Positions 9,953-41,612 of a stretch of DNA of 64,000 bases are shown piece after piece. The notes beneath the pieces were generated by a model. It was given only the letters and a program-made list of their open reading frames with translations, made no database searches and was not told the DNA's origin. The position numbers were made by a program, and so were the translations under genes. Location of the stretch: assembly GCF_943908415.1 (NCBI RefSeq), contig NZ_CALTSY010000004.1, positions 10,144 through 74,143 of the forward strand, in the 5' to 3' direction. The number at the start of each line of letters is the position of its first letter. Positions within the stretch are counted from its first letter, which is position 1. The stretch is from an uncultured Anaerococcus sp. GTDB lineage: Bacteria; Bacillota; Clostridia; Tissierellales; Peptoniphilaceae.

Positions 9953-11650
9953 TTATGCTTTTTTGATTTCTTCTATTAGAGCTGGTACTACTTCGTGGAA
10001 GTCTCCTACTATACCGTAATCACAGTTTTTAAAGAATGGTGCACTTTCATTATTATTGATTGCAACTATTGTTTTAACATCAGTAATTCCTTGTAAGTGC
10101 TGTACTGCTCCTGATATTCCTACACCAATGTATAAGTCACCTTTGAATTTTTGTCCTGATAGTCCAATATATCTATCTAATGGTACATAGCGTTTTACCT
10201 CAGCTATTGGACGAGAGCTTCCTACTGATGCTCCTGTTTCTTTAGCTAATTCCATAATAACTTCTTTGTTTTGTTCTTCGCCTATACCCATACCAAAGGC
10301 AACTACCCTATCTGAGTCTTCGAAAGCATAGTCTGGGTTAACATCTTTTTTATCAAAAGTATATCCATCTGCCTTTAATGCTTCAACTAATTTTTTAGCT
10401 GATTCTTTTGGATCACCTTTAAATATTTCTTTCTTTCTATCTCCAACTATTGATTTTTTAGGTTTTCTTTGTATCTTGCCTGTTCCTTCACTACTAGACT
10501 TTTCTGGTCTTGGAAGTATATGGCTTGCAATTACAACTCTCATTATTTGGTTTGTACCTTCATAGATTTGTGTAATCTTAGAATCTCTGTAGTGTCTTTC
10601 TACATCTACACCTTTAATAAAGCCTGAACCACCATATAATTGTAGGGCATCTGAAGTAACCTTATCAGCTAAATCTGATGCATAAAGTTTTGCCATTGCC
10701 GCATCTTTACCATAGCCTTTTTCGTGGTTTTCTTTCTTATCTGCTGCATCATATACTAAAAGTCTAGCTGCCTTTATTTGTGTAGCCATATCAGCTAACA
10801 TAAATTGAGTATTTTGGAATTGAGCAATAGATCTACCAAATTGTTCACGTTGGATAGTGTAATCTTTAGCTGATTCATAAGCTCCTTGAGCTATACCTAA
10901 AGCTTGAGCAGCTATACCGATTCTACCACCATCTAAGATCATCATAGCTTCTTTGAATCCTTTGCCAAGTTCACCTAATAAATTTTCTTTAGGAACTTTA
11001 ACATTATCAAAATGAAGCTCTGCTGTAACTGAAGATCTTATACCTAGCTTGTCATATGGTTCTGAGAATGTAAATCCTTCAAAGTCCTTATCAACTATAA
11101 ACTGAGATATGCCGTGATTACCCTTGCCTGGTTCAGTAATTGCTGTTACAAGATAAGTTTGAGCATAAGGGGCATTGGTAATATAAATCTTTTTACCATT
11201 TAGTAGATAGTAATCTCCCTTATCAACAGCTGTAGTTTCTGTGCCAGCTGAATCTGATCCTGCATTATCTTCTGTAAGACCAAATCCACCTAAAGATCTA
11301 CCATCTAATAGTGGTCTTAGATATTTCTCTTTTTGTTCATCTGTACCCCACTCATTAATACCCCATGTACCTAAGGATGTATGAGCAGATACTATTACAC
11401 CAACACCACCATCAACTCTAGAAAGTTCTTCTACAGCTACAGCATAGTGTTTTTGACTAAGTCCAGCACCACCCCATTCTTCAGGAAAAGGAATGCCTAA
11501 AAGACCAAGCTCTCCCATTTCCTTTACTATATCTACAGGAAATTCCTTAGTTTGGTCTAATTGAAATGCTATTGGTTTTACTTTCTTTTCTGCAAAATCT
11601 CTAACATATTGTCTAAATTCTTCTATATCTTTTGGTAAATTATAAGCCAT
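9953..11650 (-). CDS. acyl-CoA dehydrogenase fused to a C-terminal EtfA-like FAD-binding domain
   Basis: Residues 1-~380 are ACAD (compare bcd). Residues ~420-565 align closely with the C-terminal domain II of the EtfA at 16815-17819 (SVGSSRP...IGISGAIQHL...DYGIVGD..EVVPAL). Confidence 0.8.
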   Translation of the reverse strand: MAYNLPKDIEEFRQYVRDFAEKKVKPIAFQLDQTKEFPVDIVKEMGELGLLGIPFPEEWGGAGLSQKHYAVAVEELSRVDGGVGVIVSAHTSLGTWGINEWGTDEQKEKYLRPLLDGRSLGGFGLTEDNAGSDSAGTETTAVDKGDYYLLNGKKIYITNAPYAQTYLVTAITEPGKGNHGISQFIVDKDFEGFTFSEPYDKLGIRSSVTAELHFDNVKVPKENLLGELGKGFKEAMMILDGGRIGIAAQALGIAQGAYESAKDYTIQREQFGRSIAQFQNTQFMLADMATQIKAARLLVYDAADKKENHEKGYGKDAAMAKLYASDLADKVTSDALQLYGGSGFIKGVDVERHYRDSKITQIYEGTNQIMRVVIASHILPRPEKSSSEGTGKIQRKPKKSIVGDRKKEIFKGDPKESAKKLVEALKADGYTFDKKDVNPDYAFEDSDRVVAFGMGIGEEQNKEVIMELAKETGASVGSSRPIAEVKRYVPLDRYIGLSGQKFKGDLYIGVGISGAVQHLQGITDVKTIVAINNNESAPFFKNCDYGIVGDFHEVVPALIEEIKKA

Positions 11651-40528: not shown

Positions 40529-40602
40529 TGGAGGCGCCACCCAGATTTGAACTGGGGATAAAGGTGTTGCAGACCTCTGCCTTACCACTTGGCTATGGCG
40601 CC
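40529..40602 (-). tRNA. tRNA-Cys (GCA)
   Basis: 74-nt cloverleaf with anticodon loop CUGCAAC and an encoded CCA. The ORF-track translation QSVEQRT…VGGSIPP is the classic tRNA artefact. Confidence 0.9.
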
Positions 40603-40608
40603 AATATA

Positions 40609-40715
40609 AGCCTGTCCGGCTAATAGAGGACCCTCCATGGAATGGTCGTGTGTAACACGAAAGCCTGTTCGGCTAATGGAGTACCCACCACGGAATGGTT
40701 GTGCAAAGCACTATT
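40609..40715 (+). repeat. two tandem copies of a ~50-bp REP/BIME-like structured repeat (orientation A); a partial third copy lies at 40922-40946
   Basis: Core AAGCCYGYYCGGCTAATRGAGKACCCWCCAYGGAATGG followed by a variable short hairpin (CGTGTgtaACACG / GTGCaaaGCAC). Confidence 0.7.
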
Positions 40716-40974
40716 ACCCAGCCAGTAATGATTAAAAGCTATGTAATAATCGTATATAGTACAGTTAGTATAGACTATCATGAAATTATGTGCTTAGCAC
40801 GAAAATCCGTCTTTTGACGGCGAACACGAAATCAATGGATATTTGGCTTTCATGAATAGTCGTAATCTTATCTAGAGTATAACTCTAAACTTTAAAATAC
40901 TGTATTATGGCCTCAGGCAATAAAAAGCCCGCCCGGCTAATGGATTTAATAACCACTAACTGGCCAGGTAATTG

Positions 40975-41049
40975 TGGAGCGGATGACGAGATTCGAACTC
41001 GCGACCCTCGCCTTGGCAAGGCGATGCTCTACCACTGAGCCACATCCGC
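40975..41049 (-). tRNA. tRNA-Gly (GCC)
   Basis: 75 nt with anticodon loop UUGCCAA, a T-arm GGTTCGAATC and a CCA end. Confidence 0.9.
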
Positions 41050-41296
41050 ATATCATTTCAATACTTTTATAGTATACTACTTAATTTATTTTTTTGCAAA
41101 TATTTTTTATTAATTATGCGTTTATGATATAAATCAAATAGATATATCTTATATTAAACTAGACTTTTGTTATTTGTCCAAATACATTTTGCCGTATTGG
41201 CTGAGCTGTTTTTCCGTTCTACACGAGACTTGCCGGGTTGATATTATATTAGTCAGCTAGGATTGTTGATTCCTAACTCCTTATCATGATAGATCC

Positions 41297-41482
41297 TCTA
41301 ATAGCTGGACGGGCTTGTTGCTTCGCAACACCATTCCATGGAGGGTCCTTAGCTAGCCGGACGGGCTTGCTTTTTGCTTCGCACGACCACTCCGTGGCGG
41401 GTCCTCCTCTAGCCGGACAGGCTTGTTTTTTGCTTCGCAACACCATTCCATGGAGGGTCCTCCTCTAGCCGGACGGGCTTGA
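41297..41482 (-). repeat. three and a half tandem copies of the same repeat family (orientation B, the reverse complement of 40609-40715)
   Basis: Units at 41319, 41369 and 41427: TGCTTCGCAACACCATTCCATGGAGGGTCCTCCTCTAGCCGGACGGGCTTG. Copies abut with no spacers. Confidence 0.7.
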
Positions 41483-41485
41483 TTT

Positions 41486-41561
<76 letters not shown>

Positions 41562-41583
41562 GTATTTTTTTATTACTTCCCAT

Positions 41584-41612
41584 ATTCTAAACCTAAATTT
41601 AAATTTTGTCAA
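41584..41612 (-). promoter_or_regulatory. sigma-A promoter for the tRNA-Phe/Gly/Cys cluster
   Basis: Minus strand: TTGACA, 17-nt spacer, TAGAAT, ~20 nt upstream of the tRNA-Phe 5' end. Confidence 0.5.

What the first reader, a model, noticed from the sequence alone, without database searches (positions are those of the whole stretch)
40603..41482. Previously unrecognised ~50-55-bp structured repeat family (REP/BIME-like) in inverted blocks around a tRNA-Phe/Gly/Cys cluster
Two and a half copies in one orientation lie between tRNA-Gly and tRNA-Cys (40609-40715, partial at 40922-40946). Three and a half abutting copies in the opposite orientation lie between tRNA-Phe and tRNA-Gly (41297-41482). 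The conserved core is CAAGCCCGTCCGGCTAGAGGAGGACCCTCCATGGAATGG, containing the palindromes GGAGGnnCCTCC and CCATGG. It is followed by a short hairpin whose sequence differs between copies while keeping complementarity (TTGCttcGCAA, CGTGTgtaACACG, GTGCaaaGCAC). That is covariation, which argues for selection on RNA or DNA structure. The copies have no spacers, so this is not CRISPR. The two false ORFs in the track (41286-41468 and 41409-41612) are created by these repeats and the tRNA.
Basis: seen in the sequence. Interest (0 to 1): 0.55.

Follow-up and report, generated by a model that had tools for sequence, protein, structure and literature searches.

The report
Pseudoknotted repeat family flanking tRNA genes
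A non-coding repeat of about 55 bases, present seven times around three tRNA genes here and scattered through Anaerococcus genomes, folds into a small pseudoknot plus two hairpins that compensating mutations keep intact; it appears to be an undescribed, genus-specific cousin of the REP/BOX-type bacterial repeats, not a gene, a CRISPR array or a chance duplication.

Summary
There are seven copies (five full, two partial) of a 52-56-nt unit. Three and a half lie head-to-tail directly after tRNA-Phe on the minus strand. Two and a half lie on the plus strand between tRNA-Cys and tRNA-Gly.

The unit is a family, not a local duplication. About 40 distinct copies were recovered from other Anaerococcus genomes and human-associated metagenomes. 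It matches no Rfam 15 family, plasmid, phage, viral contig or paper searched.

- an H-type pseudoknot (AGCC/GGCU plus loop GUCC pairing with GGAC 6-8 nt downstream; eight compensated stem-2 variants);
- a CCAY-GGA-RUGG hairpin (only U-A or C-G seen);
- a variable GNA-triloop hairpin.

The GGAGG/CCTCC palindrome is not supported.

Placement is polar. The AAGCC "head" lies 0-7 nt from a tRNA 3' end or an ORF stop codon in sense orientation. In antisense orientation it lies next to a tRNA or FMN-riboswitch 5' end. The tail is never adjacent. Arrays end in a 5'-partial unit.

Related species show the locus empty, filled, expanded or decayed.

Best reading: a new modular, structure-dependent interspersed repeat of the REP/BOX class, but not a REP/BIME member. 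What mobilises it is unknown, and an RNA-level role is possible.

The parts
41486..41561 (-). tRNA-Phe (GAA), CCA encoded. Repeat array A-D begins 4 nt after its 3' end.
   Evidence: ARAGORN; Rfam tRNA, 71.1 bits
41584..41612 (-). Promoter-like site TTGACA-17-TAGAAT upstream of tRNA-Phe. It would co-transcribe units A-D as a 3' trailer (inferred).
   Evidence: 11 of 12 matches. No terminator-like site lies between tRNA-Phe and the array.
41427..41482 (-). Unit A, full. Pseudoknot: S1 AGCC 41479-41476 with GGCT 41470-41467; S2 GTCC 41474-41471 with GGAC 41460-41457. H4 is CCAT-GGA-ATGG at 41453-41443. H5 is TTGC-GAA-GCAA at 41440-41430.
41371..41426 (-). Unit B, full. H4 is the compensated variant CCAC-GGA-GTGG. 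H5 is partly eroded.
41317..41370 (-). Unit C, full (52-nt spacing to D)
41290..41316 (-). Unit D, a 5'-partial 'head' only (AAGCCCGTCCAGCTATTAGAGGAT), decaying. It is orthologous to the partial unit in the closest relative, L168.
40606..40660 (+). Unit E, full. Its head lies 6 nt from the 5' end of tRNA-Cys, antisense to the tRNAs. An orthologous copy is conserved in at least five other Anaerococcus lineages.
40659..40715 (+). Unit F, full but more diverged: S2 GTTC/GTAC has one mismatch, and H4 CCAC..ATGG has a C.A mismatch.
40925..40944 (+). Unit G, a 5'-partial head (AAGCCCGCCCGGCTAATGGA)
40975..41049 (-). tRNA-Gly (GCC), with its own promoter-like site TTGCAA-17-TATACT at 41099-41071. The two oppositely oriented repeat blocks flank it, tails inward.
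40529..40602 (-). tRNA-Cys (GCA), followed by a strong terminator-like hairpin at 40523-40507

Best explanation
The units belong to a modular, non-coding interspersed repeat family specific to Anaerococcus. It is of the same general kind as REP, BOX and similar bacterial elements.

Each full unit (consensus ACAAGCCCGTCCGGCTAATGGAGGACCCTCCATGGAATGGTCTTGCGAAGCAAGA) folds on one strand into three parts:
1. A compact H-type pseudoknot: stem 1 AGCC/GGCU; a 1-nt loop; stem 2 GUCC pairing with GGAC after a 6-8-nt purine-ending loop.
2. A 4-5-bp hairpin, CCAY-GGA-RUGG.
3. A terminal hairpin of free sequence, usually with a GNA or AAA triloop closed by C-G.

The fold, not the sequence, is what is conserved (shown).

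Copies are laid down with a fixed polarity. The AAGCC head lies a few nucleotides beyond the end of a tRNA gene, a riboswitch or an ORF. The tail points away (shown).

Arrays then grow or shrink by tandem duplication, probably by unequal exchange between the head of a full unit and the 5'-partial head that closes most arrays (inferred).

In this window the family expanded an ancestrally compact tRNA-Phe/Gly/Cys operon from a few nucleotides of spacer to 424 and 372 nt (shown by comparison with relatives).

Units A-D are most likely transcribed as a 3' trailer of pre-tRNA-Phe. E-F are most likely transcribed as the reverse complement in the leader of tRNA-Cys. There they can act only as generic stable structures that are removed during processing (inferred).

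The agent that copies the units is not identified. The A-rich junctions, head-first polarity and 3'-truncated last unit fit strand extension by template switching onto another copy better than cut-and-paste transposition. This last point is speculative.
For: The unit is a family, not a local event.
- nhmmer finds 63 copies in 335 kb of Anaerococcus-like sequence, and 40 have distinct cores.
- Named sources are A. martiniensis, A. provencensis, Anaerococcus sp. DFU013_CI05 and a Peptoniphilaceae isolate. Further copies come from 34 AT-rich metagenome contigs.
- The window itself is an unnamed skin Anaerococcus.

The fold is supported by covariation.
- Across 39 distinct cores, 98.7% of cells are paired, five pairs change on both sides, and 0 of 500 shuffles reach the observed score. 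Sliding the partners drops pairing to 28-38%.
- RNAalifold independently chooses GTCC/GGAC and the CCAY/RTGG hairpin.
- A strict pseudoknot descriptor gives 62 hits, against 0-3 in 20 shuffles. Stem-2 variants GTCC, CTCC, GCCC, CCCC, GCAC, GTGC, GTCT and GGCC are all compensated, as are stem-1 variants AGCC, CGCC and GGCC.
- A test anchored on stem 1 only: 31 of 34 GTCC loops have GGAC downstream. Among other loops, 13 carry their own complement and 4 carry an uncompensated GGAC; chance is about 1.6%.
- The metagenome search pattern allowed all four Y/R combinations in the hairpin. Only T/A (21) and C/G (13) occurred.
- In the terminal hairpin, 5 of 6 pairs change on both sides, and 0 of 500 shuffles match.

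Placement is polar.
- Head to tRNA 3' end: 4-6 nt (Phe twice, Glu, Tyr, Phe, Leu).
- Head to ORF stop: 0-6 nt (groEL in two lineages, a pilin-like gene, an SH3 gene, a DUF1538 gene).
- Head to tRNA 5' end, antisense: 5-7 nt (Cys in five lineages, Asp).
- The head abuts the first base of an FMN riboswitch, antisense.
- The distance on the tail side is never below 52 nt.

The orthologous locus shows turnover.
- A. hydrogenalis and A. vaginalis have Phe-8 nt-Gly-4 nt-Cys with no repeat.
- L169 and L171 have no repeat.
- L168 has 1.5 units after Phe, against 3.5 here.
- L170 has three antisense units before Cys.
- L172 and L173 hold decayed remnants.

The same genomes carry several other GC-rich repeat families.
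Against: - No mobilising gene, terminal inverted repeats or target-site duplication was found.
- Ten assemblies of the same species show no copy-number polymorphism, so movement is slow.
- The copy next to tRNA-Cys is far better conserved across lineages than the surrounding spacer. Its terminal hairpin shows compensated changes between orthologues: TCGTGC..GCACGA, TTGTGC..GCACAA and TCGTGT..ACACGA. That could mean a host function in place rather than mere persistence, or it could reflect gene conversion between copies.
- Single units do not fold more stably than shuffled sequence in nested-structure prediction (z from -0.3 to +0.65).
Confidence: 0.55

Rival explanations
1. The units are host-selected RNA modules. 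They act as structured 'punctuation' at the ends of tRNAs, riboswitch leaders and highly expressed mRNAs. They would block exonucleases and/or direct endonucleolytic cuts in the A-rich linkers (RNase Y/J type), so defining and protecting RNA ends.
For: - Units lie in transcribed positions. They sit between the groEL stop and its terminator, after tRNA CCA ends with no intervening terminator, and between a promoter and an FMN riboswitch.
- They follow highly expressed genes.
- The orthologous copy is conserved above its flanks, with compensated hairpin changes.
- The three single mismatches in antisense-placed copies (F, L136, L154) would be G.U pairs on the transcribed strand.
- From general knowledge: E. 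coli REPs close to stop codons stabilise upstream mRNA.
Against: - Copies are transcribed in either orientation, yet the loop lengths (1 nt and 6-8 nt) allow the pseudoknot only on the unit strand (inference from pseudoknot geometry).
- G.U pairs are almost absent (3 of 468 cells, none), which is unusual for a selected RNA.
- Related species lack the units at the same tRNA locus, or let them decay.
- The wobble asymmetry rests on about six events and is not significant.
Confidence: 0.25
2. It is a true REP/RAYT-type or IS200/IS605-derived miniature element. It would be moved as single-stranded DNA by a Y1 (HUH) transposase encoded elsewhere in the genome.
For: - The head is always attached beside the target, as with the left end of IS200/IS605 elements.
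- There are no terminal inverted repeats and no target duplication.
- GNA triloops closed by C-G are the classic very stable DNA mini-hairpin (general knowledge).
- The near absence of G.T pairs is consistent with folding as DNA.
Against: - No conserved 4-5-nt target precedes the head. The flanks vary: AAATC, AAAC, AAGC, ATAT, TAAAC.
- There is no GTAG.
- No Y1 transposase was found in size-compatible window ORFs, nor by tblastn with a recalled IS200 TnpA across 449 kb. Both tests are weak.
- Head-to-tail arrays that end in 5'-partial units are not typical of REP/BIME.
Confidence: 0.1
3. Each unit is a catalytic or toxin-neutralising RNA. It could be a new small self-cleaving ribozyme acting at the unit boundary, or a ToxI-like pseudoknot antitoxin array.
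For: - The unit is a compact pseudoknot of about 45 nt with many invariant unpaired bases.
- Arrays are tandem with A-rich linkers.
- Units start exactly at RNA ends.
- From general knowledge: HDV-like and hatchet ribozymes cleave at their own 5' edge, and ToxI is a tandem pseudoknot repeat.
Against: - No match to any Rfam ribozyme or ToxI model even at E<=10.
- The topology does not fit the HDV, pistol or twister folds (manual comparison).
- No toxin-sized ORF lies next to the arrays.
- Many copies are single, antisense or decayed.
Confidence: 0.05
4. It is a purely local tandem duplication, a chance similarity, an assembly artefact or a small protein-coding repeat.
For: Within the 64-kb window, all copies lie in one intergenic region.
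Against: - Dozens of copies occur at unrelated loci in several species.
- Independent assemblies are identical.
- The period is not a multiple of 3, and the ORFs contain CGG codons that this genome otherwise avoids.
Confidence: 0.02

Closest known systems
REP / BIME elements of Enterobacteria and Pseudomonas (RAYT-associated)
   Same: Both are short, GC-rich, structured extragenic repeats. Both often lie just past stop codons, occur singly or in clusters, are co-transcribed with flanking genes and encode nothing.
   Different: The unit is not a single imperfect palindrome and lacks the 5' GTAG. Clusters are head-to-tail arrays rather than alternating inverted pairs with linker motifs. No RAYT was found. 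The core is a pseudoknot, and placement is strictly head-first.
BOX elements of Streptococcus pneumoniae (boxA-boxB(n)-boxC)
   Same: Both occur in Firmicutes, are modular, and have one module repeated in tandem a variable number of times. Both are intergenic, have a predicted stable structure and have no known transposase.
   Different: There is no sequence similarity. Module sizes and order differ: pseudoknot, hairpin, hairpin, ending in a partial head. BOX is not known to abut tRNA or ORF ends with a fixed polarity (from memory).
Type III antitoxin arrays (ToxI and relatives)
   Same: Both are spacer-less tandem arrays of short units that each fold as a pseudoknot and are joined by A-rich linkers.
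   Different: ToxI arrays sit immediately upstream of a ToxN-family toxin gene and occur at one locus per system. Here there is no toxin gene, and the units are dispersed at many loci and in both orientations.
Bacterial MITEs (Correia, RUP, bcr1)
   Same: Both are small non-autonomous repeats in intergenic regions, and some are transcribed and structured.
   Different: MITEs have terminal inverted repeats and target-site duplications. This unit has neither.
Small H-type pseudoknots (luteoviral frameshift signals, preQ1-I aptamer)
   Same: The geometry is the same: 4-5-bp stems, a 1-2-nt first loop and a 6-8-nt purine-rich last loop (from memory).
   Different: Those are single-copy cis-regulators at defined positions in an mRNA. 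This one is a multi-copy repeat at gene ends with no associated coding signal.

Membership tests
REP | Unit is one 20-40-nt imperfect palindrome | tested here: not met
   The unit is 52-56 nt, with a pseudoknot plus two separate hairpins. The one long palindrome (ATGGAG..CTCCAT) is not conserved.
REP | Conserved 5' GTAG-type tetranucleotide beside the hairpin | tested here: not met
   The unit starts (A/N)(C/A)AAGCC, and no GTAG occurs in any of the 40 distinct cores.
REP | A RAYT (Y1 transposase) gene in the genome, often flanked by REPs | tested here: inconclusive
   None among ten size-compatible window ORFs. No tblastn hit with a recalled IS200 TnpA in 449 kb. The whole genome was not available.
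REP | Extragenic, with many copies per genome | tested here: inconclusive
   All copies seen are extragenic, and single metagenome samples yield several loci.
BIME | Alternating inverted REP pairs separated by defined linker motifs | tested here: not met
   Copies within an array are direct, head-to-tail, with 0-6-nt A-rich joints. The two blocks of opposite orientation lie about 570 bp apart with a tRNA gene between them.
BOX (pneumococcal) | boxA, boxB and boxC sequence modules | not tested
   No BOX reference sequence was available in the tools. No Rfam or literature match to the unit was found. The resemblance is architectural only.
MITE | Terminal inverted repeats and target-site duplication | tested here: not met
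   The unit ends (AAGCC... and ...GCAAGA) are not inverted repeats. The flanks show only variable A-runs.
CRISPR | Repeats separated by unique spacers of similar length | tested here: not met
   The units abut one another (spacing 52-56 nt, equal to the unit length).
Type III toxin-antitoxin (ToxIN-like) | Repeat array immediately upstream of a ToxN/AbiQ-family endoribonuclease gene | tested here: not met
   Downstream of array A-D on the minus strand lie only spacer and tRNA-Gly. No non-overlapping ORF of 50 aa or more is present.
Any Rfam 15 family (including ribozymes, STAXI, TwoAYGGAY, ToxI) | Covariance-model match | tested here: not met
   No hit over the repeats at gathering score or at E<=10 in the window. 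None in 36 other repeat-bearing loci.

The most novel reading that the evidence does not exclude
The units are not transposed. They would instead be written head-first onto a free or stalled 3' end by template switching, at the edge of heavily transcribed, structured genes (tRNA, riboswitch, groEL). The enzyme could be a DNA polymerase or a reverse transcriptase, and the template would be another copy.

Each round would re-anneal through the A-run, so arrays would grow like telomeric repeats and end in a 3'-truncated unit.

Alternatively, or in addition, the pseudoknot may be a new functional RNA: a processing or exonuclease-blocking module, or a small ribozyme that cuts at its own 5' edge.
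Probability: 0.15. Interest if true: 0.8.

Novelty: new variant of a known kind. Interest (0 to 1): 0.5.

Why it matters
Short structured repeats are common in bacteria, but for most of them neither the selected structure nor the mode of spread is known.

This family offers an unusually clean case:
- a small pseudoknot backed by eight compensated stem variants;
- a strict head-first placement within 0-7 nt of tRNA, riboswitch and ORF ends;
- a series of related species showing the same tRNA locus empty, filled, expanded and decayed.

That makes two questions directly testable in a culturable human-associated genus. How do transposase-less repeats propagate? Do they shape tRNA and mRNA end processing?

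There is also a practical point. The units create false ORFs with strong Shine-Dalgarno/ATG signals, and they break metagenome assemblies at tRNA loci.

Tried and rejected
**Searches that found nothing or misfired**
- Genome-wide 15-mer scan. It still yielded the Anaerococcus loci.
- Rfam at gathering score and at E<=10: nothing over the repeats.
- blastn against plasmids and phages, two IMG/VR scans (only GC-rich chance hits) and five literature searches: nothing.

**Structures considered and rejected**
- Single-unit MFE folding: no excess stability. Nested folding cannot see the pseudoknot.
- The GGAGG/CCTCC palindrome as the functional helix: rejected.
- HDV-like, pistol, twister and hatchet topologies, compared by hand: no fit.

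**Functional ideas considered**
- A CsrA-type GGA-loop sponge, and the Shine-Dalgarno + ATG as a real start. ATG alternates with ACG through the covarying pair, so the start codon is not conserved.
- Terminator function: only a 4-bp stem plus a T-run on the reverse strand, placed illogically before tRNA-Cys and before the FMN riboswitch.

**Tests that were inconclusive**
- G.U versus C.A strand asymmetry, to decide which strand folds: too few events.
- Search for a Y1 transposase: negative, but weak.

**Matches set aside**
- L122 and L156 are chance matches in GC-rich coding DNA.

Full report
**What is in the window**

Three tRNA genes lie on the minus strand: Phe 41486-41561, Gly 40975-41049 and Cys 40529-40602 (Rfam tRNA).

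Directly after the CCA of tRNA-Phe come three full copies and one 5'-partial copy of a 52-56-nt unit, head to tail on the minus strand (41482 down to about 41290). Two full copies lie on the plus strand next to tRNA-Cys (40606-40715). A 5'-partial copy lies at 40925-40944.

The head 15-mer matches 7 times against 0.2 expected, and the central 18-mer 5 times against 0.02 expected. TRF reports a period of 56, 3.1 copies and 84% identity.

Ten independent metagenome contigs of the same species carry the identical 1,227-bp intergenic region, apart from one 1-nt indel. It is therefore not an assembly artefact, and it is stable within the species.

**It is a family**

A capped genome scan and blastn/nhmmer follow-up found the unit in A. 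martiniensis, A. provencensis, Anaerococcus sp. DFU013_CI05, an Anaerococcus MAG and a Peptoniphilaceae isolate.

A more specific metagenome scan gave 34 AT-rich contigs, plus two GC-rich chance hits. In all there were 63 nhmmer hits and 40 distinct cores.

Homologues of the neighbouring DUF6873 protein are all named Anaerococcus. The best named ones are only 66-73% identical, so the window comes from an unnamed skin Anaerococcus.

Nothing similar exists in Rfam 15, in PLSDB plasmids or INPHARED phages, in IMG/VR or in the searchable literature.

**The selected structure**

On 39 distinct cores, four helices were tested.

- *Stem 1 and stem 2.* Stem 1 is AGCC/GGCT. Stem 2 is GTCC, in the loop of stem 1, pairing with GGAC 6-8 nt downstream. 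Together they form an H-type pseudoknot.
- *The three-helix model.* Stem 1, stem 2 and the hairpin CCAY-GGA-RTGG give 98.7% paired cells and five pairs with changes on both sides. None of 500 shuffles reaches the observed values, and sliding the partners drops pairing to about 30%. RNAalifold, which cannot draw pseudoknots, independently picks GTCC/GGAC and the CCAY/RTGG hairpin.
- *Descriptor search.* A strict pseudoknot descriptor finds 62 sites, against 0-3 in shuffles. It reveals sub-families with the same architecture but other sequences. Stem-2 variants are GTCC, CTCC, GCCC, CCCC, GCAC, GTGC, GTCT and GGCC. Stem-1 variants are AGCC, CGCC and GGCC. All are compensated.
- *Non-circular check.* That search required pairing, so it was repeated anchored on stem 1 alone. 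Thirty-one of 34 GTCC loops have GGAC downstream. Of loops with another sequence, 13 carry their own complement and 4 an uncompensated GGAC, two of which are G.T wobbles. Chance is about 1.6%.
- *The hairpin pair.* The metagenome pattern allowed all four Y/R combinations. Only T/A (21) and C/G (13) occurred.
- *The terminal hairpin.* Five of six pairs change on both sides. Its loops are mostly GAA, GCA, GTA or AAA, closed by C-G.

Nested MFE prediction of single units shows no excess stability. That is expected if the key helix is a pseudoknot.

The loop lengths (1 nt, then 6-8 nt ending in purines) match what small H-type pseudoknots need. They would not work on the complementary strand. This is an inference from established pseudoknot geometry, recalled from memory.

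**Where copies sit**

The placement is strikingly polar.

- *After tRNA 3' ends, sense.* The AAGCC head lies 4-6 nt after the 3' end of tRNA-Phe (window, L168), and of Glu, Tyr and Phe in A. provencensis, and of Leu (L135).
- *After stop codons, sense.* It lies 0-6 nt after the stop of groEL in two lineages, and of a pilin-like gene, an SH3-domain gene and a DUF1538 gene.
- *Before RNA 5' ends, antisense.* It lies 5-7 nt from the 5' end of tRNA-Cys (window plus four other lineages) and of tRNA-Asp. It abuts the first base of an FMN riboswitch.
- *Tail side.* No copy has its tail within 50 nt of a gene end.
- *Joints and array ends.* Joints are A-rich and 0-6 nt long. Most arrays, and many single units, are followed by a 5'-partial head.
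- *Orientation relative to transcription.* This is mixed. Units are sense in the groEL 3' UTR and in tRNA trailers. They are reverse-complement in the tRNA-Cys leader and in the leader between a good promoter and the FMN riboswitch.

**History of this locus**

A. hydrogenalis and A. vaginalis have a compact Phe-8 nt-Gly-4 nt-Cys operon with no repeat. Two other lineages have longer AT-rich spacers without repeats.

The closest relative (86% protein identity) has 1.5 units after Phe, where the window has 3.5. The terminal partial unit is orthologous in the two.

Anaerococcus sp. Marseille-Q5996 has three antisense units before Cys. A. cruorum and another lineage retain only decayed remnants.

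The copy next to tRNA-Cys is much better conserved than the rest of the spacer. Its terminal hairpin differs between orthologues by compensated changes. That suggests either selection in place or conversion from other copies.

G.U pairs are almost absent (3 of 468 cells, none). The few single mismatches are too few to say which strand is selected.

**Interpretation**

The best-supported reading is a new, genus-specific, modular interspersed repeat whose single-stranded fold is what is maintained. It is the same kind of thing as REP or BOX elements. It is not a member of REP/BIME:
- the unit is not a single palindrome;
- there is no GTAG;
- there are no inverted pairs;
- no RAYT was seen in 449 kb (a weak test).

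It is not a MITE (no terminal inverted repeats or target duplication). It is not CRISPR (no spacers). It is not a type III antitoxin array (no toxin gene).

In this window it has inflated the tRNA spacers. It is probably transcribed with the tRNAs and trimmed away.

What copies it is unknown. The head-first polarity, A-run joints and 3'-truncated terminal units suggest extension of a 3' end by template switching onto another copy, but this is speculation.

The main rival is that the units are host-selected RNA end-structures that act as exonuclease blocks or processing signals. The conserved orthologous copy and the preference for highly expressed genes speak for this. The two orientations, the lack of G.U pairs and the loss or decay in relatives speak against it.

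**The small ORFs**

The ORFs drawn over the repeats are false. The period is not a multiple of three. One ORF runs through tRNA-Phe. Each contains CGG codons, which are absent from 8,976 codons of long ORFs in this window and are reported as extremely rare, and possibly reassigned, in Anaerococcus (PMC8629427).

Noticed in passing
L009, L025, L029, L094, L098, L116 (Pedobacter); L001, L008, L022, L023, L042, L051 (Marinilabiliales); L033, L112: The same 15-mer AAGCCYGTCCGGCTA is multi-copy in several AT-rich Bacteroidota genomes. There it is followed after only 0-3 nt by GGAC and is flanked by A-runs. In Pedobacter it sits inside a larger repeat of about 230 nt. It may be convergence (a terminator-like hairpin on the other strand), or it may be a distant relative of the pseudoknot module.
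   Followed up: partly
L056 3479-3545; L027 2218-2290; L130 2641; L136 1447; L135 1160: A second sub-family has the same architecture but a different sequence. It consists of the pseudoknot ACGCC-T-GCCC-GGCGT-CTTGAGA-GGGC, then the hairpin CGTGCC..GGCACG, then AATTACCGCAGGAGCGAAGCGACGAGGACC. It also lies directly after tRNA-Phe in A. provencensis.
   Followed up: partly
L143 whole locus; L086 3900-4700: Anaerococcus intergenic DNA carries several other GC-rich repeat families, for example GTCATTTCGACCGGAG...GGAGAAATC and GGATCTCTCCACTTCGCTTCGCTACGGTCGAGATGACA. L143 also has a terminal redundancy (1-300 = 10512-10811), which suggests a circular molecule or a collapsed repeat.
   Followed up: no
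L056 3940-4290: Two tandem repeats of about 150 nt each end in a duplicate of the 3' end of tRNA-Met (GTCCAGGTTTCGAGTCCCTGGAGGCCCACCA). They look like attachment-site scars of integrative elements. A three-unit array of the repeat follows immediately.
   Followed up: no
window 40529-41612 compared with L174 and L175: The ancestrally compact Phe-Gly-Cys operon (spacers of 8 and 4 nt) has been split in this lineage. tRNA-Gly now has its own promoter-like site (TTGCAA-17-TATACT, 41099-41071).
   Followed up: partly
window, all long ORFs: CGG is absent from 8,976 codons of 18 long ORFs, and AGA dominates arginine coding. This fits the published prediction that Anaerococcus has an extremely rare, possibly Trp-reassigned, CGG codon (PMC8629427).
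   Followed up: partly
L150 6190-6469 and 7868-7933: A group II intron (Rfam D1-D4 and domain V/VI models) lies in the same contig as a groEL-linked repeat copy. A reverse transcriptase is therefore available in at least some of these genomes.
   Followed up: no
window 41446-41461 and equivalent positions in other units: Each ATG-type unit carries a near-perfect Shine-Dalgarno sequence (GGAGGA) 6 nt before an ATG. This is why gene callers open ORFs there. The ATG alternates with ACG through the covarying hairpin pair, so it is not a conserved start.
   Followed up: yes
L159, L161, L163, L164: Several metagenome contigs of this species end inside tRNA-Phe or tRNA-Gly, so assemblies tend to break at this locus.
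   Followed up: no
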